From a virus, in UHGV virus genome UHGV-0861165: a stretch of DNA of 11,523 nucleotides; one strand, written 5' to 3'. A model generated the notes under the pieces. That model saw only the letters and a list, made by a program, of their open reading frames with translations. It had not been told where the DNA came from and ran no database searches. A program made the position numbers and the translations under genes. Below are positions 1-11,523 of this stretch, one piece after another. Positions within the stretch are counted from its first letter, which is position 1; every line of letters starts with the position of its first letter.

Positions 1-2748
1 ATTGAGCATGGACCAGATGCTGTCCTGACTTTACCCGAGGGTAATGCCAGCGCAGGACTCCCGTCTTCCGTTCGCTACAATGCCGACTCCGACGAATTTG
101 AGGGCTTCTATGAAAATGGTGGATGGTTGCCGCTGGGTGGCGGTGGTATCCGCTGGGAAGTCCTTCCGCATGCCTCTACGGCAACGCTCACTGAAGGGCG
201 AGGCTATCTCATTAATAATACCACAGGGGCATCTACAGTGGTTCTCCCTTCCCCTACGCGTATTGGGGATTCTGTTACTATTTGTGATGCTTATGGGAAA
301 TTTGCCACTTACCCATTGACTGTGTCTCCTTCTGGAAATAATTTGTATGGCTCCACTGAAGACATGGCTATAACAACTGATAACGTATCAGCAACGTTCA
401 CTTGGTCTGGACCTGAACAAGGTTGGGTTATCACATCCGGTGTCGGTCTTGGCCAAGGTCGTGTCTACAGTCGTGAAATCTTTACAAAAATTTTGGCGTC
501 TGAAACAAGTGCTGTCGCTCTCAATACTCCACCAACAATCGTGGACGTGTATGCTGACGGAAAACGTCTTGCGGAATCCAAATATTCACTAGATGGGAAT
601 GTAATCACTTTCAGTCCTTCTTTGCCAGCCAACACAGAACTTCAGGTGATTGAATATACTCCTATTCAATTGGGTAATAGCGGTGGTTCTGGTTCTTCTA
701 CGATTACCTGGGTCTATAATGGGGGTTCAGCGATTGGCGGTGAAACCGAAATCACTTTGGACGTCGTTGTTGATGATGTTCCGGCCATTGATATAAACGG
801 AAGTCGCCAGTATAAAAATCTGGGATTCACATTCGATCCATTAACCAGTAAAATCTATCTTGCACAAGAACTGGAACCAGAGGATGAAGTTGTTGTAATT
901 ATCAATGGAACACCAAACATCTATAATCAAATTGATCATACTTTGCGGGAAGTTGCTCGTGCTACTAACGTTAAAGACAGTGAAGTAATTCTTAGTTCTG
1001 ACACTACTCAGTCCCTTAATGGTAAGAAGATTATTTACTCTGTTAGTGAGCAGAAGGCATATAGTTTACCTACTCTACCGTCCAATGTATTTATTGAATC
1101 TGTTGAAAGTGGGAAATTAACATATAGTCCTGGCTCAATTAAGGTAGATCTACTCCCATTACCTAATGACTCTGCTGTAACTGAGCAAGCAATTCTCAAC
1201 CAGTTGTCTGCAATTGAAGGTGAATCCCTTATTGGAACAGTTACCTATGTAACCCTGCGAGAGTACACAGGCTCAGCTACACGTGTTAAGTGTATCGGTA
1301 GAAGTGTAGAGGGGGATGGTGGTGAGGGGGACTTCTATTTAGTACCTGGTGATTCTACTTCAGTAGATGATGATGGGGTAATTATTGTTGATGGTTCCGG
1401 CCGTCGTTGGAAACGTTCCTATTCTGGCCCAATTTCTGCCTCTTGGTTCGGTGTAAGAGATGGTACTGACGTCACCACTACACTACAAAATGCAGTTAGT
1501 CGGGGTGGTGGACAAATCTTTGTACAGGACGGTCAGTACACACTTACTGCTCCCATCGTTGCAAATTTTACTGGTGCATCTTTCCCAATTATGGGAAGAA
1601 AAAGTAAGCGTTTTGATTTCATTGGTTCATCCATGGCGAACACCACTTTTAATACTAATGGTAATGAAGCGTTTAGTTTTACCGGTACTGATGGTTCTGT
1701 AGCTGGTCAGGGTGTACATAGTGGTGCACGTATTAGTGACTTCAGCGTCTATGGCACAAATAATACAGGCATTGGTGTACGTTTGGTTGGTGCTGCATAC
1801 CTCAAAGTACATGACCTCCAAATTAAACGTACTAATATCGCTATGCGTATTTCTGGTGTACTCTCAAGTGATATAAAACGAATCAATGCTCAATATAACA
1901 ACCATGGTATGTACATCACCAGTGCTTCTAACAGTACAGTCAATGCTATGCGTATTAGTGGGATGTTTGGTGCTAATAGTAAATGGGGAATTGAAGGTGA
2001 AGTAGGTACTAACGTATACATTGAAGATTCTAATTTTGAGGGTAATGGTACAGATGGGGATGAACTGTCTGGTGCTATTTACTTACGAGTTGTAGAACCT
2101 TTGAGCACCATTAACATTAGTGGGTACTTTGAGGCTAACGTTGGGCGAGCAGATATACTGATAGATAACCGAACCAGCTCTCCTTTGGTTGTAAACCTCC
2201 GTGGTTGCGTATTTAATCGTGGTGGTATGCGTGGTGGGTCTAATCTTGGTATTGGTGCAAAGTATAATGTTGAGACACGCTCTACTGGCGGTGGTCCAAT
2301 CATCCTTAATCTTAATGGTTGTGTATTCTTTACACAGACGGGTTTTGGATATGTACCTAGTGCAGATTCTCCATATATACAACCAGCACCATACTTAACT
2401 GTTAATGGGGAAGATACTTGTTACTTTAGTGAATCTACTAGTCGTGGTGAGACTGGGAACCGTGGTATGACATTAGGTATTTCTATGAAAGCTGATGGAA
2501 CCATGGCCAATAAACCACCTTTCTTAACCTCAACTCGTGTTTCTGCTGGTGTATACACCATCACACACAATACTAGATTCGGGACGGATATTGATCATTT
2601 CCAGGCAGTGGCTACGTCTAAGGCCAGTGGTTTTACTGTATCTTATGTGCAGAAGGTTAACTTACAGGCATTACGCATCGTTACATTAAATGCAGCAGGT
2701 TCGCCTGCTGATACTGATTTTGATGTTATAGTCACTTCTCGTCGTTAA
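1..2748 (+). CDS. Tail spike protein, long form, 5'-partial: N-terminal tandem small beta-domains (gp10-like by recollection), internal docking motif, then right-handed parallel beta-helix depolymerase-type domain
   Basis: Frame 1 has no stop from position 1 to TAA at 2746-2748. The ORF-track start at 127 is a TTG inside this open frame, so the gene begins upstream of the window. The translation shows periodic beta-helix-like repeats rich in G/N/S/T (e.g. GIGVRLVGAAYLKVHDLQIKRTNIAMRISG, NVYIEDSNFEGNG). It is paralogous to ORF3 in the docking motif (REVARATNVKDSEVIL...QKAYSLPTLP) and the pre-helix neck motif. Confidence 0.85.
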   Translation: MEHGPDAVLTLPEGNASAGLPSSVRYNADSDEFEGFYENGGWLPLGGGGIRWEVLPHASTATLTEGRGYLINNTTGASTVVLPSPTRIGDSVTICDAYGKFATYPLTVSPSGNNLYGSTEDMAITTDNVSATFTWSGPEQGWVITSGVGLGQGRVYSREIFTKILASETSAVALNTPPTIVDVYADGKRLAESKYSLDGNVITFSPSLPANTELQVIEYTPIQLGNSGGSGSSTITWVYNGGSAIGGETEITLDVVVDDVPAIDINGSRQYKNLGFTFDPLTSKIYLAQELEPEDEVVVIINGTPNIYNQIDHTLREVARATNVKDSEVILSSDTTQSLNGKKIIYSVSEQKAYSLPTLPSNVFIESVESGKLTYSPGSIKVDLLPLPNDSAVTEQAILNQLSAIEGESLIGTVTYVTLREYTGSATRVKCIGRSVEGDGGEGDFYLVPGDSTSVDDDGVIIVDGSGRRWKRSYSGPISASWFGVRDGTDVTTTLQNAVSRGGGQIFVQDGQYTLTAPIVANFTGASFPIMGRKSKRFDFIGSSMANTTFNTNGNEAFSFTGTDGSVAGQGVHSGARISDFSVYGTNNTGIGVRLVGAAYLKVHDLQIKRTNIAMRISGVLSSDIKRINAQYNNHGMYITSASNSTVNAMRISGMFGANSKWGIEGEVGTNVYIEDSNFEGNGTDGDELSGAIYLRVVEPLSTINISGYFEANVGRADILIDNRTSSPLVVNLRGCVFNRGGMRGGSNLGIGAKYNVETRSTGGGPIILNLNGCVFFTQTGFGYVPSADSPYIQPAPYLTVNGEDTCYFSESTSRGETGNRGMTLGISMKADGTMANKPPFLTSTRVSAGVYTITHNTRFGTDIDHFQAVATSKASGFTVSYVQKVNLQALRIVTLNAAGSPADTDFDVIVTSRR

Positions 2749-2754
2749 CTGATA

Positions 2755-2775
2755 CCCCTCCTCGGAGGGGGTTTC
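2755..2775 (+). terminator. Terminator-like GC hairpin (CCCCTC / GAGGGG stem, short loop) followed by TTTCT
   Basis: Perfect inverted repeat CCCCTC(2755-2760)...GAGGGG(2765-2770) with a T-rich 3' flank, 7 nt after the ORF1 stop. The T-tract is short, so it may be a partial terminator or an RNA-stability element. Confidence 0.55.
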
Positions 2776-2880
2776 TAGAAAAACAATGAGGTACATATGA
2801 ACGGATTATTCTTACAAGGTGGTAAAGGTTCAACCGGGATCTTAACCAATAAACAAGCAATAGCTCGGCATTTCGGTGTC
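2776..2880 (+). repeat. Junction cassette copy A: CTAGAAAAACAA-GAGGT-ATATGAACG plus conserved 5' coding segment of the short tail spike
   Basis: By eye, near-identical at nucleotide level to 8103-8209 (TAGAAAAACAAtGAGGTacATATGAACGgatTaTTCTtACAAGGTGGTAAAGG... versus TAGAAAAACAAaGAGGTttATATGAACGaaaTgTTCTcACAAGGTGGTAAAGG...). Includes the RBS (GAGG) and the ATG at 2797. Confidence 0.7.
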
Positions 2881-5301
2881 AAAGAAGACGAAGTCGTTTA
2901 TTTCACTGTCGGTATTGATCTCAGTGGATTTAAAGTAATTTATGATGAGTCTACCCAACGGGCTTATTCTCTTCCTTCAGGTATTGTTTCAGGAACGACT
3001 GCGATAAGCCTTAATTCTGCTGGGGTATTAGTCCATTCTGCTGGTAATGTGGATTTAGGTGCACTAGCTGTTACCCGGGAAGAGTATGTAACTTTACCTG
3101 GTTCATTCGAGACGGGTGTAACCGTTAATGCCAAGAATGAGTTAGTTGTCTTTGCGAATGGCAAGTATCGTTGGGATGGGGCATTGCCTAAAGTGGTTGA
3201 TGCAGCCTCATCCCCCGAAACCAGTGGTGGTATTGCTTCAGGTGCTTGGGTAGGTGTGGTTTCTGCTCTCCTAACAACAGCCAGCGGTACTGGGCTTGTA
3301 GGTCACAAAGGTGCTAACTTTAGTGACACCACTGCCTACCTTTACCTATCCTGGCGTAATGGTGATATTACTGCATTCGGGGGTGTGTACGATGACGCCT
3401 CAGCTGGTGATCTAAATAAAGCAGCCTTTGCTACTATGCAGGATACTTTTGGGGGTGTACGTATAAACCTCATGGGTAAAGCAGTTTACCTACCAAACTC
3501 TATGGAGTTAGAGGTAGGGAGTCTGGAAATCTGGGGTGGTGGTAATATTTTCGGTGGTTCTGGATACATGTTCCGTGCTGGTGACAACGGATTCGTTAAC
3601 ATTAAGGAATTTACCCTACAAAGTATTGATGCAAGTGGTAACGACTTCACTCGCCTTGTTGGTGCACCCTCTAATCGTGTTAACCTCATCCAGTATGTTG
3701 AAGCAGCATATTTCAAAACGATTGGAAGAGTCATCGTATTCGCTGGCAATGGTCGCGCCGGTGGAGACTTTAATCCAGTAGAGACAAGTTACGGCTGTAA
3801 GCAGATTAACTTCCATCACTTTTCATGCGAAGAGCCAGGAGACTATCTCGTTTCTGCCCAGAACTATCCGTTTGATACCTTCAGTGTCACTAAGTTTTAT
3901 GTACATAATATGAAGGGTACGCTCATCAATGCTGGAATTGATAACGATCATGTCTATGAGCGTCAGCTAAACCACGCAATGAAAACCCTCATCGTTTCCG
4001 ACTACACCGTCATGAACGAAGATGATTTCTGGGCTGATGGCGTCTTTACCTATACTACGGTAGCTATCGCTGAAGTTGAGCACCTAGTTCACACCAACGG
4101 TCGCCAACATGGTGTTAAAGTCAAAGAGGCTGGTAATGTAGTCTACGACATCTACAATAATGCATTTAGCGTCCAAGAAGAAAATATCTTTATCAGTGAC
4201 TGTTTCAACTGGAACGACGGGATGCTCATGCCTCACAAGATTAAAGGGGCGTGGAGCTATTCGAGTAAGAATAAGCACTGGGTGTACCGTAAGAGTTATG
4301 TGGTGGCAATGAAAGCTATTCACAGTGGTATTTCAGAAGGAAACGCCAAAGGTTCTTTCTTCTATCCCGAAACGGATGACCTGCACACTAGTGCTGCTTC
4401 TTCTGTCACTGATTGGACGCAACGACAAATCACGATCACTGACTGTTTCATTGAACTGATTAAAGTTAATCAGGCTAACCTTTCACGTCCATTGTTCAAT
4501 GTGCGTTTGGATGGCAACACCTTTGTTACACACGATTCTGGTACTACCCATTTGGTTCAGTTCTCTGCCTATCCCCATAACCTCTATCAGCAGATGACGG
4601 TAACAAATAACCGTATCATAGCTCCGGCTCTTACGTTATCTGCATTGGTAGGCTTCTCCGCAGGTTCTCAGGCTGGTGGAGGAGTATTCCAGGGGGTTGT
4701 CGATATTTCGAACAATACCGTTCGGGCAGCAGCGGCGAATTTGCTGGCAGATTGGTCTGGTGGTCAGAATATCGGAACTGGGTCAGTCATCCGTATCGAC
4801 AATAACGATATGGTTACCACAGGCAACTGCCAGATCTGTAACTCTAATCCGTCCTATGTTGACTCTGTATTTGCTAGAAACAACTATTTGCAGGGCACTG
4901 CGACTGTAGGGATGGGTAAGCTGAACGCATCTGCCTACGCATATGAGACTGTGAATGGGTTTAAGGGGAACAGTCCGATTGTTCTGTTCCAGCAGGGAAT
5001 CCCAACAGCGCAGCAGATTAATAGTCGCTCGTATCGCCTGGAGATTTCTGGAACTAATGGTGAGAAAGTAACCCAAGGTTTCACTATCACTGCTGGCGTC
5101 AGCACGACTTCAATACGCTTCGTGAGTTCCGATGGGAACACGTACACGAAGGTAACTGGAACCGATAATGGCACCTTCGAAATGCAATCCACTTCATCGG
5201 ATGGGTTAAATTTAGAGGTCGTGGTTGCATCTGATGGTGTAACAGTCAGAACAGCGTCGTCTGTGATGCAAAGGTTTGAAGCTCGACTGTATGCTCTGTA
5301 A
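2797..5301 (+). CDS. Tail spike protein, short form (834 aa): N-terminal anchor module shared with ORF4, divergent central and C-terminal receptor-binding/enzymatic region
   Basis: ATG at 2797 preceded by GAGG with a 5-nt spacer; uninterrupted 2505-nt ORF. The first ~155 aa (MNGLFLQGGKGSTGILTNKQAIARHFGVKEDEVVYF...KVIYDESTQRAYSLP...) are clearly homologous to the ORF4 N-terminus. The C-terminus is rich in G/T/S/V beta-strand-like sequence typical of tail spike C-terminal domains. Enzymatic fold not assignable by eye. Confidence 0.85.
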   Translation: MNGLFLQGGKGSTGILTNKQAIARHFGVKEDEVVYFTVGIDLSGFKVIYDESTQRAYSLPSGIVSGTTAISLNSAGVLVHSAGNVDLGALAVTREEYVTLPGSFETGVTVNAKNELVVFANGKYRWDGALPKVVDAASSPETSGGIASGAWVGVVSALLTTASGTGLVGHKGANFSDTTAYLYLSWRNGDITAFGGVYDDASAGDLNKAAFATMQDTFGGVRINLMGKAVYLPNSMELEVGSLEIWGGGNIFGGSGYMFRAGDNGFVNIKEFTLQSIDASGNDFTRLVGAPSNRVNLIQYVEAAYFKTIGRVIVFAGNGRAGGDFNPVETSYGCKQINFHHFSCEEPGDYLVSAQNYPFDTFSVTKFYVHNMKGTLINAGIDNDHVYERQLNHAMKTLIVSDYTVMNEDDFWADGVFTYTTVAIAEVEHLVHTNGRQHGVKVKEAGNVVYDIYNNAFSVQEENIFISDCFNWNDGMLMPHKIKGAWSYSSKNKHWVYRKSYVVAMKAIHSGISEGNAKGSFFYPETDDLHTSAASSVTDWTQRQITITDCFIELIKVNQANLSRPLFNVRLDGNTFVTHDSGTTHLVQFSAYPHNLYQQMTVTNNRIIAPALTLSALVGFSAGSQAGGGVFQGVVDISNNTVRAAAANLLADWSGGQNIGTGSVIRIDNNDMVTTGNCQICNSNPSYVDSVFARNNYLQGTATVGMGKLNASAYAYETVNGFKGNSPIVLFQQGIPTAQQINSRSYRLEISGTNGEKVTQGFTITAGVSTTSIRFVSSDGNTYTKVTGTDNGTFEMQSTSSDGLNLEVVVASDGVTVRTASSVMQRFEARLYAL

Positions 5302-5360: not shown

Positions 5361-5368
5361 ACTAAATA
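5361..5368 (+). promoter_or_regulatory. ACTAAATA motif, candidate phage late-promoter-like element (T4 late consensus TATAAATA, 6/8 match)
   Basis: The same octamer recurs at 10350-10357 upstream of ORF5, followed in both cases by a similar leader (ATGGRG-ATC-(2-3 nt)-AAATG). The spacing to the downstream start is 34-36 nt if ORF3 starts at 5405. Confidence 0.3.
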
Positions 5369-5404
5369 CCCCATATTGGCAAATCCTCTATGGGGTATCT
5401 TCAA

Positions 5405-8068
5405 ATGACCAGAAACGTCGAGAGCATCTTTGGAGCGGTCGTAACAGCTCCGCACCAGATTCCATACACTTACACAGCAACGGGCGGAGAGAAGTTTATC
5501 TCCCTCCCTTTCTACCCTGTCACTGGTATAGTCACAATCAACGGTGGTATGCAAGTTCCGTTAGACAACTTTGAAATCGATGGAAATACGTTGAATCTCG
5601 GGTGTGCATTATCCAAAGGTGACGTTGTGTTCTGTCTGTTTGATAAGATTCTGTCTCCAGAAGATTATAAAACTGGGATTCGAATCTATAAGTTTCAGGC
5701 TATAGGAGGTGAAACCGAGTTCACTCCTGATTACACATCCTATGGAGTCCAATCTCTTTATATCGGTGGTGAGTACAAAACACCCGAAATTGAATATTCC
5801 TATGACAGCACGACAGGGAAAGTGACTTTACAAACTGCGCTGACTGCAGGCGTTTGGGTAGTCGCTGAAATGTCTGTTAAACAACCGAATATCAGTCCGT
5901 TGTTTGACCGAAGTATTCAAGAAATCGCCCGTTCAGCTAATGTAAAAGATTCTGAGGTAATTCTTAATACGGATACATCTCAAGTACTCAATAACAAGAA
6001 AGTTATCTTCGATGCAGCTGCTCAGAAAATTTATGGCCTGCCTTCATTACCGACCAATGTCTATATTAGTTCTGTGTCTAATGGTCAGTTAACCTACAGT
6101 CCAGGTAACATTACCGTAGATTTGATGGAAGTTCCTAATTCTGGTGCTAGTCTCAGAGAAGACCTGAGTAAGCCTGATGGTAGCAAGCTCATTGGTTCAT
6201 GCCCCAATATTGCAGTACTGCGAACAATTGAGCCTACCTATGCTGAACAACGCATTTACGTAGAAGCACATACTGAAGGTATGATTGCAACCAATGCAGG
6301 TGATTTAGGTGGCGGGTATTTTGTATATAAACCATCTGTTACATCAGCAGATGACAATGGTATGACTATTGTTACTGCATCCGGCAAGCGTTGGGTACGT
6401 GATTTACGTGGTAGCACCGAAGTTACCCCATCTATGTTTGGTGCGTGGATGGATGCTCCTTATATTGATGGGAGCACTATTCAGGGTACACCTTATCCTA
6501 AAGCACCAAGTATGGGGGCTGCTGACCTGTCTGGTGTGCACAATGATGGGGATGCTTTGCTGGCAACCTACACATATGCTGTAGCTAATGGGTTGAATAT
6601 CAAAATTACTCAACCGATGTACATTGGTGATACACAGATTGATATTAGCAATCAGCGTTGGACTGGTAGATCTCTATCCATTACGGGTCTTGGTCAGAGA
6701 CAAAGTATTATTTATACATCAGGTAAGGGTGGATTCATCTCTACCAGATGGGGACACAATATTACCGTTGGTCGCCTCTCTTTCCGTAATGCTGATTCTG
6801 ATTACGTAGGTAGTCCTCTTGTTATCAGTTCATTCGACTTAAGTAATGGCATCGGTGGTGGTGGTAAAACATTCAATATTCACGATGTGGACTTTTACCA
6901 CTATAAGTTCGCTTTGCCTATGGCTTGCTTTGTCAGTGTTATGACCAATTTGTATGCATATGACTGTACCTATGGTTTTGGTATCAATGGAAGCACTAGT
7001 ACGGATATGTCATCTATTTGGGCACACCATTGTGACATTGGCTTTTTATGGGGAGCTGCCATTAATCGTACTACATACGAGCCAGCCAATAATGAAACAC
7101 CTGTTATGTATGTTGCTACCAGCAACATTGCAGCAGATGGTTGCATTTTACCTCATAAATTTTATGGAGATATTCGTAGCCTTTCCTTCTCTGGCTTTGG
7201 TATTGAAGGGATAAATGGTCCAGTGGCATTAGACTTCTCACAGTTAGCCTCCCCTGCTGCACAAACAACAATCGTATTCAGAGATGTTTCTTGTTGGATT
7301 CAGTCTAAAATGAATACTGGTGTAACTCATTTTATTGAGTTGCCTGCTAATGAGTACCAGGCTGGTAGGATTATTTTTGACAGTGGTTACGTTAACTCTG
7401 ACTATGCTATCAAATTGATGGAGAATACCACTTCTCCAAGTAACCAGTATATTGGGCGTAGTGTTACATTAAATAGTAATTTTGAATTTTTAAAAGTTAG
7501 CGATGGTTCCTACACAATATCTACATATAACCGTGGTAACCTTTACCGGGGCAGGGTATATGGAGAAGATATTGTACAAGGTCGTAACTCGTACACGGGT
7601 ACTACTTTGTCAGCAATCCATTCTAATAGTAATTCCTTCTTCAGAAGTGTTGACCATAAGGAAGCTACTGTACTGGTTCCATGGAACAGGGCTTTAGATA
7701 TATTCCTTTGTGCTGTAGGGGAAGAGACTAAAATTCCGGATGGTTGCTTCGTTGCTGGGCGTGCAGATATCATTCCAGTTAACAAAAATGGTTTGGCTGG
7801 TACTGAATCAGGGGGCAGTATTCTGTTTGGGCTATCCGGTAGCACACAGGAAAATGTAGCCTCTGGTGCAGTCTGGTCTAATATGATTGCTGGTGATAAA
7901 TCTCTTTCCGGGGTAACAGTAACTAAACTGGTACGTGATGGTAAAACATTTGTTAGAATCGCATTGCCTACGGCAAGCCTAACAAATGCAATCGTTCACC
8001 TTTCTGTAACCTACTGTGGTTTTGCACATTACTACGATAAGCGTTGGGAAATAAAACCCTTAAGCTAA
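5405..8068 (+). CDS. Tail spike protein, long form (887 aa from ATG 5405; 892 aa if the in-frame ATG at 5390 is used): N-terminal tandem small beta-domains, docking motif, neck motif, beta-helix depolymerase-type domain
   Basis: Uninterrupted frame to TAA 8066-8068. Start ambiguity: the ATG at 5390 has no SD and sits in the 3' arm of an inverted repeat, whereas the ATG at 5405 has a leader that parallels the ORF5 leader. The protein is paralogous to ORF1 in the docking motif (QEIARSANVKDSEVIL...QKIYGLPSLP) and the neck motif (GGGYFVYKPSVTSADDNGMTIVTASGKRWVRD). Confidence 0.85.
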   Translation: MTRNVESIFGAVVTAPHQIPYTYTATGGEKFISLPFYPVTGIVTINGGMQVPLDNFEIDGNTLNLGCALSKGDVVFCLFDKILSPEDYKTGIRIYKFQAIGGETEFTPDYTSYGVQSLYIGGEYKTPEIEYSYDSTTGKVTLQTALTAGVWVVAEMSVKQPNISPLFDRSIQEIARSANVKDSEVILNTDTSQVLNNKKVIFDAAAQKIYGLPSLPTNVYISSVSNGQLTYSPGNITVDLMEVPNSGASLREDLSKPDGSKLIGSCPNIAVLRTIEPTYAEQRIYVEAHTEGMIATNAGDLGGGYFVYKPSVTSADDNGMTIVTASGKRWVRDLRGSTEVTPSMFGAWMDAPYIDGSTIQGTPYPKAPSMGAADLSGVHNDGDALLATYTYAVANGLNIKITQPMYIGDTQIDISNQRWTGRSLSITGLGQRQSIIYTSGKGGFISTRWGHNITVGRLSFRNADSDYVGSPLVISSFDLSNGIGGGGKTFNIHDVDFYHYKFALPMACFVSVMTNLYAYDCTYGFGINGSTSTDMSSIWAHHCDIGFLWGAAINRTTYEPANNETPVMYVATSNIAADGCILPHKFYGDIRSLSFSGFGIEGINGPVALDFSQLASPAAQTTIVFRDVSCWIQSKMNTGVTHFIELPANEYQAGRIIFDSGYVNSDYAIKLMENTTSPSNQYIGRSVTLNSNFEFLKVSDGSYTISTYNRGNLYRGRVYGEDIVQGRNSYTGTTLSAIHSNSNSFFRSVDHKEATVLVPWNRALDIFLCAVGEETKIPDGCFVAGRADIIPVNKNGLAGTESGGSILFGLSGSTQENVASGAVWSNMIAGDKSLSGVTVTKLVRDGKTFVRIALPTASLTNAIVHLSVTYCGFAHYYDKRWEIKPLS

Positions 8069-8078
8069 TTAACTACCC

Positions 8079-8102
8079 CCACCCCCTTTATGGGGGTGGT
8101 TT
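8079..8102 (+). terminator. Terminator-like hairpin CCACCCCC-TTTAT-GGGGGTGG followed by TTT
   Basis: Perfect 8-bp inverted repeat (8079-8086 / 8092-8099) with a 5-nt loop and a TTT 3' tail, 10 nt after the ORF3 stop. Confidence 0.6.
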
Positions 8103-8209
8103 ACTAGAAAAACAAAGAGGTTTATATGAACGAAATGTTCTCACAAGGTGGTAAAGGCTCCACTGGTATTCTTACCAATAAGCAAGCCATTGCCCGTAAG
8201 TTTGGTGTT
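8103..8209 (+). repeat. Junction cassette copy B (see 2776-2880)
   Basis: Nucleotide-level similarity to copy A spans the leader, RBS, ATG (8126) and the first ~80 nt of coding sequence. Confidence 0.7.
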
Positions 8210-10297
8210 AAGCAATCTGAGGTTGTTTATGCCAAATCAGGACAGTCCTTGTCTGGTTATAAAGTAATCTACGATAAGGTCACTCAGCGCTCCTATGCAC
8301 TGCCTTCTAACCTGCCTGCTGGCGCTACCATCACCAGCCTGACAGACGGCATTCTCGTACACAATACGGGCACCGTAGACCTGGGTGCTCTGGCTGTACT
8401 GCGCGGGGAGTTCGTTACTCTGGTCGAAAACTTTACGTCTGGATTTACGATTCGTGTCAAAAACGAAGTTGTAAGTGATGGGGTAAATTTGTATCGCTGG
8501 GGTGGTAGTTTACCAAAGACCGTTAATTCTGGTGAAACTTTAGAAAGCACTGGGGGTATGAATACGAATGCGTGGATTGGCGTTGTATCGCTTAATAACT
8601 CATTTTTGAGTGTAAATGCTCTAAGGGCGTCAGAAAACTTAAATAAAAATATACCATTGTTTCTTTCAAGTTATTATGAAGGTATTGATGGCGGCGGCGG
8701 GTCTTTCTACGTAGATACCAACGACACTACGTCATCAGATAACAATGGTACAGTATTTGTTAACGCCTCTGGCCAGCGCATAAAACGTATTTCAGATGGT
8801 GTATGTCGTTGGTCAGACTTCGGAATTCTTCCAGGCATGCCGGTAGCGCCTACAAAATCGCAGTGTGAAGCCGTTTGGTCGTGGGGGTTTGCAAATGGGT
8901 GTACTCGTTATGAAACCTTCCAGAAAGGGGAGATGACGTTCACCTTCCCCCTGTTGTTCCAAGTTCCGGCTAACTGGACAGGTGGTGCTGTTAGCTTCAT
9001 TGCAGAAGGGTTGCATAAATTTGCTTATGATTTCAAAAATGGCGCTACAGATGATGTGATTGAGATCCTCCTTAAACTGGAAGATCTGTCAGGTAATACA
9101 CCCATCCATACTGTTTATAATTTTGATAACGTTGGGATGGGACGGTTCCCCGGGAAAAACATCCGATATACCGCACTGCGACACACGAGCGCAAAAAACT
9201 CAATGATCAAGGTTACTGGGAAGAACAACTACGGATATGCCTTGTTCATAGGCGGTAGTGATAACAGCATCGTGTACAATTCAACGTTTTATAACTGCGA
9301 TGGCCAGTTGCTTGTAAATTCTCCAGCAGGCGGTTACGACAGCTTTGGTGATGCAATTTATGTTGGCGCTAAAAATGTGTCTATCCAGAGTCCTGTAATT
9401 GAAACAACACAGGGTGGTAGAGCCGGTATCGTATTTGAAGGGACATGGGTTGAACGTGTTGGTGGTGAGGTAACAAACTGCTTTATTAAGGGATATGACC
9501 GTGGTATTCACATAGAGACTGTAGGTTTCAGGATGGATGCAATTAATATTACTGGAGGCAGGATACAAGATTGCAATACCAGCGTATTGGCATTCAATGG
9601 TGTAACTGATGATATGGGTAGTGATATGTCTGTTATCATCAAGGGGTTAACGTCAAGGCTTGATAGCACAATTTCAGGCCACGCCAATCCGTCTGGTTTT
9701 AGCCTGGGACACCTTATGGTATCTGGAGTTAACACACAAGTAACAACGGAAGGGTGCTCATGGCAGACTCACCAGAACAACATCACCGTTGTGGGTAATG
9801 GGAAATGGGTGAGCAATGGTGACCGCATGTTTGTTAACTCTGGTGGCATCAACCTGCCGTACACTCGTGGGTGCGAGATAAACAATCTGTACGCACCACA
9901 GAACAGAAACGCGTTAAAATCCGCAGGTAATTTAGTCTTTACAAACTCTTATTGGGGAGGGGACATTAACATAACCGGGGGCAATAAAACAATTATTGAT
10001 AACGTCGAGATGTCAAGACAAGGAGGATATGCAAACTGTGGTCGTATCAGTCTGGTTGGCTCCAATAGTGCGATATTGCGTAATATTATATTCCAGTATC
10101 CAGACTCATGGGCAATAGATAATACTCAAACTTGGCAGGTCCCCGTGTGTCCTATCATAGAAAACATCCACGTAAATAGCGTAGAAACAGGAACTGCAAC
10201 ATTACAAAGAAACGCAGAAAGTGGGGCTAATAATCGGTACAGAAGGTCTATTCCTTCATATATATCAAACGGAAGTACATGGACGATAATTAGTTAA
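8126..10297 (+). CDS. Tail spike protein, short form (723 aa): shared N-terminal anchor module, neck motif, right-handed beta-helix (pectate-lyase-like) depolymerase-type domain
   Basis: ATG at 8126 preceded by GAGG (8117-8120); uninterrupted 2172-nt ORF. The N-terminal ~150 aa are homologous to ORF2. Typical beta-helix repeats are visible (GGSDNSIVYNSTFYNCDGQLLVNS, AIYVGAKNVSIQSPVIETTQGGRAGIVFEG, TNCFIKGYDRGIHIET). Confidence 0.88.
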   Translation: MNEMFSQGGKGSTGILTNKQAIARKFGVKQSEVVYAKSGQSLSGYKVIYDKVTQRSYALPSNLPAGATITSLTDGILVHNTGTVDLGALAVLRGEFVTLVENFTSGFTIRVKNEVVSDGVNLYRWGGSLPKTVNSGETLESTGGMNTNAWIGVVSLNNSFLSVNALRASENLNKNIPLFLSSYYEGIDGGGGSFYVDTNDTTSSDNNGTVFVNASGQRIKRISDGVCRWSDFGILPGMPVAPTKSQCEAVWSWGFANGCTRYETFQKGEMTFTFPLLFQVPANWTGGAVSFIAEGLHKFAYDFKNGATDDVIEILLKLEDLSGNTPIHTVYNFDNVGMGRFPGKNIRYTALRHTSAKNSMIKVTGKNNYGYALFIGGSDNSIVYNSTFYNCDGQLLVNSPAGGYDSFGDAIYVGAKNVSIQSPVIETTQGGRAGIVFEGTWVERVGGEVTNCFIKGYDRGIHIETVGFRMDAINITGGRIQDCNTSVLAFNGVTDDMGSDMSVIIKGLTSRLDSTISGHANPSGFSLGHLMVSGVNTQVTTEGCSWQTHQNNITVVGNGKWVSNGDRMFVNSGGINLPYTRGCEINNLYAPQNRNALKSAGNLVFTNSYWGGDINITGGNKTIIDNVEMSRQGGYANCGRISLVGSNSAILRNIIFQYPDSWAIDNTQTWQVPVCPIIENIHVNSVETGTATLQRNAESGANNRYRRSIPSYISNGSTWTIIS

Positions 10298-10391: not shown

Positions 10392-11523
10392 ATGCAAGAA
10401 ATGAACCTCAACCGCCGCCCATATTGGGATGACTGGAATCCAGAGAAGCGTTTTTCGCGCATCCTATTCCGTCCGGCACCTATCAAAGTTCAGACGCGTG
10501 AACTGAACCAGATGCAGACCATCTTCCAGGATCAACTGGAGAAACTTGGCAACCATCTGTTCAAAGACGGTTCAATGGTTATCCCCGGCGGCCTGACGAT
10601 CACCAACACTGCTGTGTCCATGAAGTTCACTCTGGCTGGTGGTAGTGAGTTCACTGATCTGGAAGGTATCTCCGAACTCTATGTTCTGGGCAAGGACAAC
10701 AATGCGAAAGCACGCGTCCTGTCCTTGGAACGTTACCCAGCTGAGCCGGATACAATGTATGCCATCTTAGAGATGACTGAGAGTGGTAGTTCAGACGGTT
10801 TCGAAGCTGGCGACAATCTATACTTCAACACCTATGACGTGAACGATAACTTCATCCGTGTCGGCTATGGCGTGGCCGATACTGTTGGCGGTTCGATTGT
10901 CGCTCGCATGACAAAGGGTGTTTATTTCGTTCGTGGTATGTTCCTGGATGTTGAACCAACCACTTTGATCGTAGACAACGCATCGAACTCTACATCTCAC
11001 CGCATTGGCTTCAAAGTTACAGAAACAATCGTGACCGAAGCAGAAGATGAAAGTCTGTTCTCCAATGCTCAGGGTACTCCGAACTCTAAAGCCCCTGGTG
11101 CGCATCGCCTGCGCGTCGACCTCGTGTTGTCTCGCTACGGTTATGATGAAGAAGTGGCCGACTTCGTTGAACTGGCGAAGGTGAAAGACGGTCGCATTCA
11201 GTCCATGGTCACCCAGTCAACGTACAACATCCTCGAAGACGCCATGGCTCAGCGTACCTATGAGACCAATGGTGACTACAACGTCTCTACTCACCAGATC
11301 GACCTGCGTGAACATCTGAAAGAGAACAACAACGGCGGCGTTTACACTCCGGCTGAAGGTGGTGATGAAAGCAAATTCGTGGCGGTTATGAAGCCAGGCA
11401 TTTCCTACGTTCGTGGTCGTCGTATCGAAAACCTCGGCGAAGAGCTGGTCATAATTGACAAAGCCCGTGACACTGATATCCTGAACAACAACCCTGTGGC
11501 TGTTTCGACTGGCAACTATCTGG
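10392..11523 (+). CDS. Conserved phage structural protein of unknown function (possibly baseplate- or tail-associated), 3'-partial
   Basis: ATG at 10392 with a good RBS (GGAG, 7-nt spacer); the frame is open to the window end, so it is absent from the ORF track. It looks visibly GC-richer, with more host-like codon choice, than the spike genes, and it lacks beta-helix repeats and the spike N-terminal modules. The function is inferred only from its position next to the spike cluster. Confidence 0.75.
   Translation, partial: MQEMNLNRRPYWDDWNPEKRFSRILFRPAPIKVQTRELNQMQTIFQDQLEKLGNHLFKDGSMVIPGGLTITNTAVSMKFTLAGGSEFTDLEGISELYVLGKDNNAKARVLSLERYPAEPDTMYAILEMTESGSSDGFEAGDNLYFNTYDVNDNFIRVGYGVADTVGGSIVARMTKGVYFVRGMFLDVEPTTLIVDNASNSTSHRIGFKVTETIVTEAEDESLFSNAQGTPNSKAPGAHRLRVDLVLSRYGYDEEVADFVELAKVKDGRIQSMVTQSTYNILEDAMAQRTYETNGDYNVSTHQIDLREHLKENNNGGVYTPAEGGDESKFVAVMKPGISYVRGRRIENLGEELVIIDKARDTDILNNNPVAVSTGNYL

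What the first reader, a model, noticed from the sequence alone, without database searches (positions are those of the whole stretch)
1324..1430. Conserved neck motif preceding the beta-helix in three of four spikes
ORF1 GDFYLVPGDSTSVDDDGVIIVDGSGRRWKR, ORF3 GGYFVYKPSVTSADDNGMTIVTASGKRWVR (about 6307-6410) and ORF4 GGGGSFYVDTNDTTSSDNNGTVFVNASGQRIKR (about 8689-8800) share a G-x-F/Y-x-V...S-x-D-D/N-x-G-x-(I/V)-V-x-x-SG-(K/R)-R motif. In each protein it sits just before the helix begins. I did not find it in ORF2, which may therefore have a different domain organisation or enzymatic fold.
Basis: seen in the sequence. Interest (0 to 1): 0.4.

Follow-up and report, generated by a model that had tools for sequence, protein, structure and literature searches.

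The report
Known D3' linker domain of tailspikes
The shared motif is real, but it is the back half of a small, already described linker domain (D3', or "connection domain") that lies between the neck and the beta-helix body of many phage tailspikes, so it is an ordinary feature.

Summary
The window is the four-tailspike gene cluster of a Kuttervirus-type (Ackermannviridae) phage. ORF1 corresponds to TSP4, ORF2 to TSP3, ORF3 to TSP2 and ORF4 to TSP1.

The motif is present at nt 1327-1416 (ORF1), 6311-6400 (ORF3) and 8690-8788 (ORF4). The similarity is far above chance: z = 10.6-15.3, and 0 of 2000 shuffles reached it.

In ORF3 the motif aligns residue for residue with CBA120 TSP2 residues 296-328. 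That stretch is the C-terminal half of the published D3' fold module (TSP2 270-328; Greenfield 2020), called the "connection domain" in Depo32.

An AlphaFold model of ORF1 places the motif with pLDDT 90-94 in a discrete unit of one short helix and four strands. This unit lies between the neck helix and the helix that caps the beta-helix.

A profile of the module matches 17 distinct tailspike or depolymerase sequences with solved structures and 9,679 protein clusters. It also tracks a precomputed Pfam label, PF27114 (122 of 125 labelled proteins hit, 0 of 221 unlabelled).

ORF2 lacks the module (profile-profile probability 0.14%). It is still predicted to be a beta-helix spike, closest to CBA120 TSP3 and TSP1.

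One small addition: mosaic joints between related spikes fall inside or at the edges of this module.

Verdict: already known, low interest.

The parts
1..2748 (+). ORF1, a TSP4-type tailspike. It is cut at the window's 5' end; the frame is open from nt 1, and the full protein is 945 aa (P0121). Layout: anchor/XD domains, D1, neck helix, D3', beta-helix, C-terminal domain.
   Evidence: Frame open from nt 1. N-terminal part nearly identical to CBA120 TSP4-N, 7REJ, E=1e-160. P0121 is 100% identical and carries PF27114. AF2 model.
1162..1209 (+). ORF1 neck alpha-helix (aa 346-361), upstream of the module.
   Evidence: Model helix 82-97. By analogy with the 12-residue neck helix of TSP2 (PMC7506556).
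1222..1416 (+). ORF1 D3'/connection module (aa 366-430 HMM envelope; core aa 375-430). Short helix at aa 374-378, strands at aa 386-391, 401-405, 419-421 and 427-430.
   Evidence: Iterated HMM 77.5 bits. Model pLDDT 90-94 over this stretch. hhalign 99.6%. phmmer hits to 5W5P and 6W4Q run across this region.
1327..1416 (+). It covers strands 2-4 of D3' and the long loop between strands 2 and 3.
1474..1503 (+). [quoted passage not shown] The first rung starts at about aa 462.
   Evidence: Model helix 186-195, strands from 198 onward.
2797..5301 (+). ORF2, a spike in the TSP3 position. Layout: D1, D2, a short hairpin with two helices, capping helix (aa 204-218), beta-helix, C-terminal beta domains. 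No D3'.
   Evidence: Pfam Tail_spike_N only. P0241 and its full-length relatives P0242-P0248 lack PF27114. HMM 4.2 bits. hhalign probability 0.14%. Model and fold search.
5390..8068 (+). ORF3, a TSP2-type tailspike. The true start is probably the ATG at 5405.
   Evidence: 6W4Q (full-length CBA120 TSP2) E=2e-142 over aa 6-353. 96% DNA identity to the TSP2 gene of fGh-Ecl02, whose CDS start maps to nt 5405.
6185..6400 (+). ORF3 D3' module (aa 266-337).
   Evidence: Aligns to TSP2 residues 262/270-328. HMM 59.3 bits.
8126..10297 (+). ORF4, a spike in the TSP1 position. Layout: D1, D2, D3', beta-helix.
   Evidence: D1/D2 match 9D84, 4QNL and 4OJ5. Pfam Tail_spike_N. Homologues carry PF27114.
8588..8788 (+). 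ORF4 D3' module (aa 155-221).
   Evidence: HMM 87.3 bits. The segment alone hits the D3' of K2-2 TSP 8IQ9 (E=1.5e-7) and of AM24 5W5P.

Best explanation
The motif is the C-terminal half (strands 2-4 and the loop between strands 2 and 3) of the D3' fold module of tailspike proteins, also called the 'connection domain'. D3' is a ~60-residue open-face beta-sandwich: four antiparallel strands packed round a two-turn helix. It is inserted between the trimeric neck alpha-helix and the alpha-helix that caps the N-terminal end of each right-handed beta-helix.

In this Kuttervirus-type phage three of the four spikes carry it (the TSP4-, TSP2- and TSP1-position proteins). The TSP3-position spike goes from D2 to the cap through a short non-D3' linker.

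Its most likely role is structural. It acts as a compact adaptor that spaces and orients the enzymatic beta-helix body relative to the neck and virion-attachment domains. It also forms the tolerant joint at which beta-helix cassettes are grafted onto different anchors.

Shown here: homology to the solved D3' of CBA120 TSP2, a confident predicted fold and position, absence from ORF2, and very wide distribution. Inferred: the adaptor/joint function. No catalytic or receptor-binding role is indicated.
For: ORF3 aa 305-337 align column by column with CBA120 TSP2 296-328 within an E=2e-142 alignment to 6W4Q. The TSP2 paper defines D3' as residues 270-328, lying between the neck helix and the D3 capping helix, and also present in TSP4 503-557, Fri1 gp49, AM24 TSP and AS12 gp42 (PMC7506556).

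A three-sequence profile made from the window alone finds TSP2 270-328 exactly, and AM24 at E=2e-8. A 33-sequence profile hits TSP2, AM24, TSP4, K2-2 TSP, 23SH gp1, Kp7 gp52, K64-1 S2-4, DpK2/Depo32, WceF, APK09 gp48 and Fri1 gp49.

The AF2 model of ORF1 aa 265-873 has mean pLDDT 85.8 and 90-94 over the module. In order it shows a neck helix, a short helix, four strands, a capping helix and then beta-helix rungs. Its best solved matches are D3'-bearing spikes: 6W4Q, 5W6P, 8IQ5 and 5W6H.

The precomputed label PF27114 coincides with the module: 122 of 125 labelled proteins are hit and 0 of 221 unlabelled. ORF1's full-length copy P0121 carries the label.

The module is widespread: 9,679 of 1.84 billion cluster representatives match at E<=1e-3, and the segments match 5-14 PHROG tail-protein families each.

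Joint behaviour: relatives with P22-type, T7-type or Tail_spike_N anchors begin to align at ORF1 aa 330-372 and at ORF4 aa 160. Identity also steps up inside or at the end of D3'. ORF1 against P0123 is 12% in the neck, 43-53% in D3' and 94-98% after it. ORF4 against P0007 is 25%, 79% and then 100%. DNA conservation with phage SJ2 stops at nt 977 in ORF1 and nt 6112 in ORF3, in both cases upstream of the module.
Against: No experiment assigns a function to D3'. The two structural papers disagree on how much it contributes to trimerisation.

The strand topology 1-2-4-3 could not be checked, because model coordinates are not exposed. Only one of the three modules (ORF1) was modelled; ORF3 and ORF4 rest on sequence and profile homology. 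The models are monomers of a trimeric protein.

The joint inference comes from protein identity profiles of a few dozen relatives, not from a statistical test of breakpoints. A few short relatives of the ORF1 beta-helix lack the module (P0175, P0179, P0182), so the beta-helix does not strictly need it.
Confidence: 0.93

Rival explanations
1. Trimerisation neck or beta-helix cap: the motif itself holds the three chains together or caps the solenoid.
For: It lies on the path between neck and beta-helix. [quoted passage not shown] In TSP2 a chloride on the threefold axis is held by Arg284 of the three D3' units. ORF1 R386 and the arginine of ORF3's EQRIYV occupy that column.
Against: [quoted passage not shown] The cap is a separate alpha-helix about 20 residues downstream (PMC7506556). 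ORF4 has no arginine at the chloride-binding column.
Confidence: 0.15
2. Recombination junction: the conserved peptide, and hence partly conserved DNA, is kept mainly because it offers a crossover site for swapping beta-helix cassettes between spikes and between phage families.
For: Mosaic joints fall within or at the ends of the module. The same ORF4-type cassette occurs at 90% identity on a P22-type head-binding anchor in E. coli (P0007).
Against: The three copies in this window share no detectable DNA similarity, so they cannot recombine with each other by homology. The recombination motif proposed for Kuttervirus is a different one, GTTAVSL in D1 (PMC8432352). A folded domain with conserved glycine, phenylalanine and arginine positions across 9,679 clusters points to structural constraint. 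Joints at domain borders are expected anyway, because chimaeras broken inside a domain fold badly.
Confidence: 0.2
3. Accessory glycan-binding site: the small sandwich binds host polysaccharide and helps first contact.
For: Small beta-sandwiches in spikes often bind sugars (general knowledge). The module occurs in tandem copies in some proteins, as carbohydrate-binding modules do.
Against: No ligand is reported on D3' in the papers read here. It sits at the virion-proximal end of the spike, far from the catalytic grooves. Its conserved residues (GGG-F, D-D-x-G, R-W-K-R) look like turns and core positions rather than a binding face; this is inference.
Confidence: 0.05
4. Chance resemblance of Gly/Asp/Ser/Thr-rich stretches.
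For: The segments are compositionally biased and short.
Against: z = 10.6-15.3 with 0 of 2000 composition-preserving shuffles. Profile hits to solved structures reach E = 3e-20. The modelled fold is confident.
Confidence: 0.01

Closest known systems
D3' fold module of phage CBA120 TSP2 (residues 270-328; PDB 6W4Q, 5W6P) and TSP4 (503-557; 5W6H)
   Same: Same position (neck helix, module, capping helix, beta-helix). Same length. Alignable sequence including GGG-x-F, D-N/D-x-G and W-x-R. Same predicted set of secondary-structure elements. Same phage family and the same gene positions for ORF3 and ORF1.
   Different: Only about 30-40% identical. In CBA120 TSP1 lacks it, whereas here the TSP1-position ORF4 has it, as do SJ2 ORF153 and PhiSH19 TSP1. 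ORF1 has no D2 between D1 and the neck, unlike CBA120 TSP4.
'Connection domain' of Klebsiella depolymerase Depo32 / DpK2 (7VZ3, 7VYV, 7LZJ; residues about 199-266)
   Same: Matched by the module profile at E = 4e-6. Described as following a short neck helix and preceding the capped beta-helix (PMC10581125).
   Different: The anchor (helical bundle), host and substrate (K2 capsule) all differ. The profile match stops short of the final strand.
N-terminal modules of Acinetobacter phage tailspikes (AM24 5W5P, Fri1 gp49 6C72, APK09 gp48 8OQ0)
   Same: Greenfield 2020 lists AM24 and Fri1 gp49 as sharing the D3' fold, together with AS12 gp42 (6EU4), which the profile here did not hit at E <= 0.01.
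   Different: These are podophage spikes with short particle-binding domains and capsule depolymerase bodies.
Precomputed Pfam label PF27114 (its name is not available in the local Pfam copy)
   Same: The label coincides with the module in 343 of 346 proteins tested.
   Different: I could not read the family's definition. That it is the same as D3' is inferred from co-occurrence and position only.

Membership tests
D3' / connection module of tailspikes | Significant sequence similarity to the solved D3' of CBA120 TSP2 (270-328) or its listed structural relatives | tested here: met
   ORF3: direct alignment to TSP2 296-328. The window-only profile hits TSP2 270-328 (E about 5e-5) and AM24 (2e-8). 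The ORF4 segment hits 8IQ9 at 1.5e-7. ORF1 hits 5W5P at 8e-6.
D3' / connection module of tailspikes | [quoted passage not shown] | tested here: met
   ORF1 model: helix 82-97, module 110-166, capping helix 186-195, rungs from 198. For ORF3 this follows from the alignment to 6W4Q. ORF4 was not modelled.
D3' / connection module of tailspikes | Open-face sandwich: four antiparallel strands (order 1-2-4-3) round a two-turn helix | tested here: inconclusive
   The model shows one short helix and four strands at pLDDT 90-94. Strand order and packing could not be read, because coordinates are not exposed.
D3' / connection module of tailspikes | Absent from ORF2 (negative test) | tested here: met
   HMM 4.2 bits. 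hhalign probability 0.14% against 99.6% for the control. No PF27114 label on ORF2 or its relatives. The model shows a hairpin plus two helices instead.
Ackermannviridae branched four-tailspike cluster (TSP1-4) | Four consecutive spike genes; TSP4 with anchor and XD domains, TSP2 with XD domains, TSP1 and TSP3 with a D1-D2 head; flanked by the VrlC-like gene | tested here: met
   Best DNA matches are Kuttervirus phages (fGh-Ecl02, SJ2, Det7).
Beta-helix glycosidase/lyase body (D3) in ORF2 | Right-handed parallel beta-helix with an N-terminal capping helix | tested here: met
   Model pLDDT 78. Foldseek to CBA120 TSP3 at 2.5e-17 and TSP1 at 1e-15, plus other beta-helix enzymes. The alignment is shallow (8 full-length sequences), so confidence is moderate.

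The most novel reading that the evidence does not exclude
The D3' module may be the preferred splice point of a pan-phage cassette system. Beta-helix depolymerase bodies could be exchanged between Ackermannviridae, P22-like, T7-like and other phages by crossovers inside or at the end of this one conserved 60-residue domain. That would explain its presence in about 10,000 protein clusters and its frequent tandem duplication.
Probability: 0.2. Interest if true: 0.4.

Novelty: already known. Interest (0 to 1): 0.12.

Why it matters
It matters little as a discovery. The module was described structurally in 2020 for the model phage of this same family. It has since been noted in Klebsiella and Acinetobacter phage depolymerases, and it appears to have its own Pfam entry.

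Its practical value is for annotation and engineering. Recognising the module marks the N-terminal border of the swappable receptor-binding cassette. It also tells which spikes in a cluster follow the D1-(D2)-neck-D3'-helix plan and which follow the D1-D2-helix plan. Finally, it shows that the statement "TSP1 and TSP3 lack D3'" is specific to CBA120 and is not a rule for the family.

Tried and rejected
- The local Pfam-A and NCBIfam copies give no family over the motif, so the module could not be named from them. The PF27114 label appears only as a precomputed tag, and a literature search for it found nothing.
- A look-up of the contig that encodes ORF2 found nothing on record. Cluster look-up shows only an unnamed 20,337-nt NCBI/Logan contig, so the source phage remains unnamed.
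- Recent duplication or gene conversion between the three copies is rejected: there is no DNA similarity.
- Identity with the published Kuttervirus recombination motif GTTAVSL is rejected: that motif lies in D1.
- A hidden, diverged D3' in ORF2 is rejected by the HMM, the profile-profile comparison and the model.
- The first MAFFT alignment of only three segments misaligned the N-terminal half. It was replaced by the 33-sequence alignment A5.
Full report
**What the window is.** Four long same-strand ORFs fill the window. The best DNA matches are Kuttervirus phages of the Ackermannviridae, including Enterobacter phage fGh-Ecl02, Salmonella phage SJ2 and Det7. Only 25-42% of the window is covered, which is the usual pattern of conserved N-terminal assembly parts and variable receptor-binding parts.
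- ORF1 is open from nt 1. Its N-terminal part is nearly identical to the CBA120 TSP4 anchor/XD fragment (7REJ, E=1e-160). Its full-length form is P0121, 945 aa.
- ORF3 matches full-length CBA120 TSP2 (6W4Q, E=2e-142) over aa 6-353.
- ORF2 and ORF4 begin with the D1-D2 head of CBA120 TSP1 and TSP3.
- The gene order is therefore TSP4, TSP3, TSP2, TSP1, followed by the start of the VrlC-like gene.

**The observation.** The three quoted peptides are present: ORF1 aa 401-430 (nt 1327-1416), ORF3 aa 308-337 (nt 6311-6400) and ORF4 aa 189-221 (nt 8690-8788). Pairwise local scores of the motif segments lie 10.6-13.6 standard deviations above composition-preserving shuffles, and none of 2000 shuffles reaches them. 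The extended ~60-residue segments give z = 10.9-15.3. No DNA similarity links the three coding segments, so these are old copies.

**What it is.**
- In the alignment of ORF3 to the TSP2 crystal sequence, the motif lies opposite TSP2 residues 296-328.
- Greenfield et al. 2020 define residues 270-328 of TSP2 as the D3' fold module. It is an open-face sandwich of four antiparallel strands round a two-turn helix, inserted between the neck helix and the helix that caps the beta-helix. It is also present in TSP4 (503-557) and in three Acinetobacter phage spikes, and absent from CBA120 TSP1 and TSP3 (PMC7506556).
The N-terminal half, with a conserved L-R and the first strand, was overlooked.
- A profile built from the three window segments alone finds TSP2 270-328 exactly, and AM24 at E=2e-8.
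- A 33-sequence profile (A5) finds 17 distinct tailspike or depolymerase sequences with solved structures. These include TSP2, AM24, TSP4, K2-2 TSP, Kp7 gp52, K64-1 S2-4, DpK2/Depo32, Pantoea WceF, APK09 gp48 and Fri1 gp49.
- In Depo32 the same element is called the connection domain (PMC10581125). In RaK2 gp527 it was recognised as D3'-like (PMC10253068).

**Structure.** An AlphaFold model of ORF1 aa 265-873 was built from 62 sequences and has mean pLDDT 85.8. In ORF1 numbering it shows, in order:
- a neck helix at aa 346-361;
- a short helix at aa 374-378;
- strands at aa 386-391, 401-405, 419-421 and 427-430;
- a linker;
- a capping helix at aa 450-459;
- then the beta-helix rungs.

The module has pLDDT 90-94. 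The model's best solved matches are D3'-bearing spikes.

**ORF2.** The module is absent.
- The best local score against ORF2 is at background level.
- The iterated HMM gives 4.2 bits.
- The profile-profile comparison gives probability 0.14%, against 99.6% for the ORF1 control.
- Neither ORF2 nor its seven full-length relatives carry the PF27114 label.
- The ORF2 model (pLDDT 78, shallow alignment) passes from D2 through a hairpin and two short helices to a capping helix at aa 204-218 and then a beta-helix.
- Its best solved matches are CBA120 TSP3 and TSP1.

ORF2 therefore differs in domain plan but not, as far as predicted, in the fold of its body.

**Breadth.**
- A precomputed Pfam label, PF27114, is absent from the local Pfam copy and tracks the module almost perfectly. 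The iterated HMM hits 122 of 125 labelled proteins and none of 221 unlabelled ones.
- The A5 profile finds 9,679 cluster representatives at E<=1e-3 and 1,941 at E<=1e-10 among 1.84 billion.
- Of the top 148 representatives, 66 carry two or three copies, some in direct tandem.
- The isolated segments match 5-14 PHROG families of tail fibre, spike or depolymerase proteins.
- TSP1-position proteins with the module already exist in named phages (SJ2, PhiSH19, Marshall). ORF4 carrying it is therefore not new.

**How it probably works.** The evidence fits a structural adaptor that connects the neck to the capped beta-helix. The TSP2 paper reports little contribution to trimer contacts, apart from a chloride held by Arg284 of the three modules. 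ORF1 R386 and the arginine in ORF3's EQRIYV occupy that column, while ORF4 has none. The Depo32 paper reports hydrophobic trimer contacts for the neck helix plus connection domain.

A second inferred property is that the module marks the joint of the exchangeable cassette.
- Relatives of the ORF1 and ORF4 bodies that sit on P22-type, T7-type or Tail_spike_N anchors start aligning at ORF1 aa 330-372 and at ORF4 aa 160.
- Identity steps up within or right after the module. ORF1 against P0123 is 12% in the neck, 43-53% in D3' and 94-98% downstream. ORF4 against the E. coli prophage spike P0007 is 25%, 79% and then 100%.
- DNA conservation with SJ2 ends before the module in ORF1 and ORF3.

This joint is distinct from the GTTAVSL site in D1 that was proposed for Kuttervirus recombination (PMC8432352).

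**Verdict.** However, it is neither the neck nor the cap, and ORF2 is still a beta-helix spike. The element is an already described domain, so novelty and interest are low.

Noticed in passing
related proteins P0347-P0494 (e.g. P0353 aa 27-90/99-162/171-234; P0348 aa 18-80/134-200; P0352 aa 136-199/777-838/1416-1477): The D3' module often occurs in two or three copies per protein. Some copies are in direct tandem. In giant proteins of about 2000 aa, copies recur hundreds of residues apart, possibly one before each enzymatic body; the bodies themselves were not examined. The papers I read do not describe tandem D3' copies.
   Followed up: partly
window 8588-10297 (ORF4 aa 155-723) vs P0007 (WP_063122163.1): The ORF4 body is 93-100% identical to that of an E. 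coli prophage tailspike with a P22-type head-binding domain. Identity falls to 79% in the second half of D3' and 25% in the first half. This is a cross-family cassette exchange with its joint inside the module.
   Followed up: partly
window 1222-2748 (ORF1) vs P0123/P0124: The identity step lies exactly at the RRWKR end of D3': 43-53% in the module and 94-98% from the next residue onward. The partner proteins carry Tail_spike_N and T7 tail-fibre N-terminal labels.
   Followed up: partly
window 928-1209 (ORF1 aa 268-361): ORF1 goes from D1 straight to the neck helix and D3' with no D2 domain. That is the CBA120 TSP2 plan joined to a TSP4 anchor/XD N-terminus. CBA120 TSP4 has D1-D2-D3'.
   Followed up: partly
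window 5390-5407: The listed ORF3 start (ATG 5390, MGYLQ...) is probably not the real one. CBA120 TSP2 and the fGh-Ecl02 homologue start at the MTRNVE methionine, which is nt 5405.
   Followed up: partly
window 2797-5301 (ORF2 body, aa ~160-834): The ORF2 receptor-binding body is rare. Only seven full-length relatives were found, at 40-45% identity. They are in Enterobacter hormaechei and E. coli genomes, and one has a P22-type head-binding domain. No Pfam, NCBIfam or solved-structure sequence match lies beyond the head.
   Followed up: partly
window 2772-2799, 8101-8128 and 5361-5398: Similar upstream stretches (TAGAAAAACAA[T/A]GAGGT..ATATG) precede ORF2 and ORF4. Separately, the 38 nt at window 5361-5398 (upstream of ORF3's likely start) match two intergenic sites in fGh-Ecl02 exactly, one before each of two spike genes. 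These are probably shared translation-initiation or late-promoter elements of the spike genes.
   Followed up: no
window ~10392-11523: This is the start of the VrlC-like (virulence-associated) gene that follows the spike cluster in Kuttervirus genomes. It is 98.7% identical to fGh-Ecl02 and runs off the window end.
   Followed up: no
PDB 6TGF (Pantoea stewartii WceF) residues 165-220: A chromosomal bacterial exopolysaccharide-modifying enzyme with a tailspike-like fold also matches the D3' profile (E=6e-5). The module is therefore not confined to virion proteins.
   Followed up: no
P0175, P0179, P0182: Short proteins (367-494 aa) share 44-50% identity with the ORF1 beta-helix but start after the D3' position and carry no PF27114 label. 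They are either truncated gene calls or bodies that work without the module.
   Followed up: no
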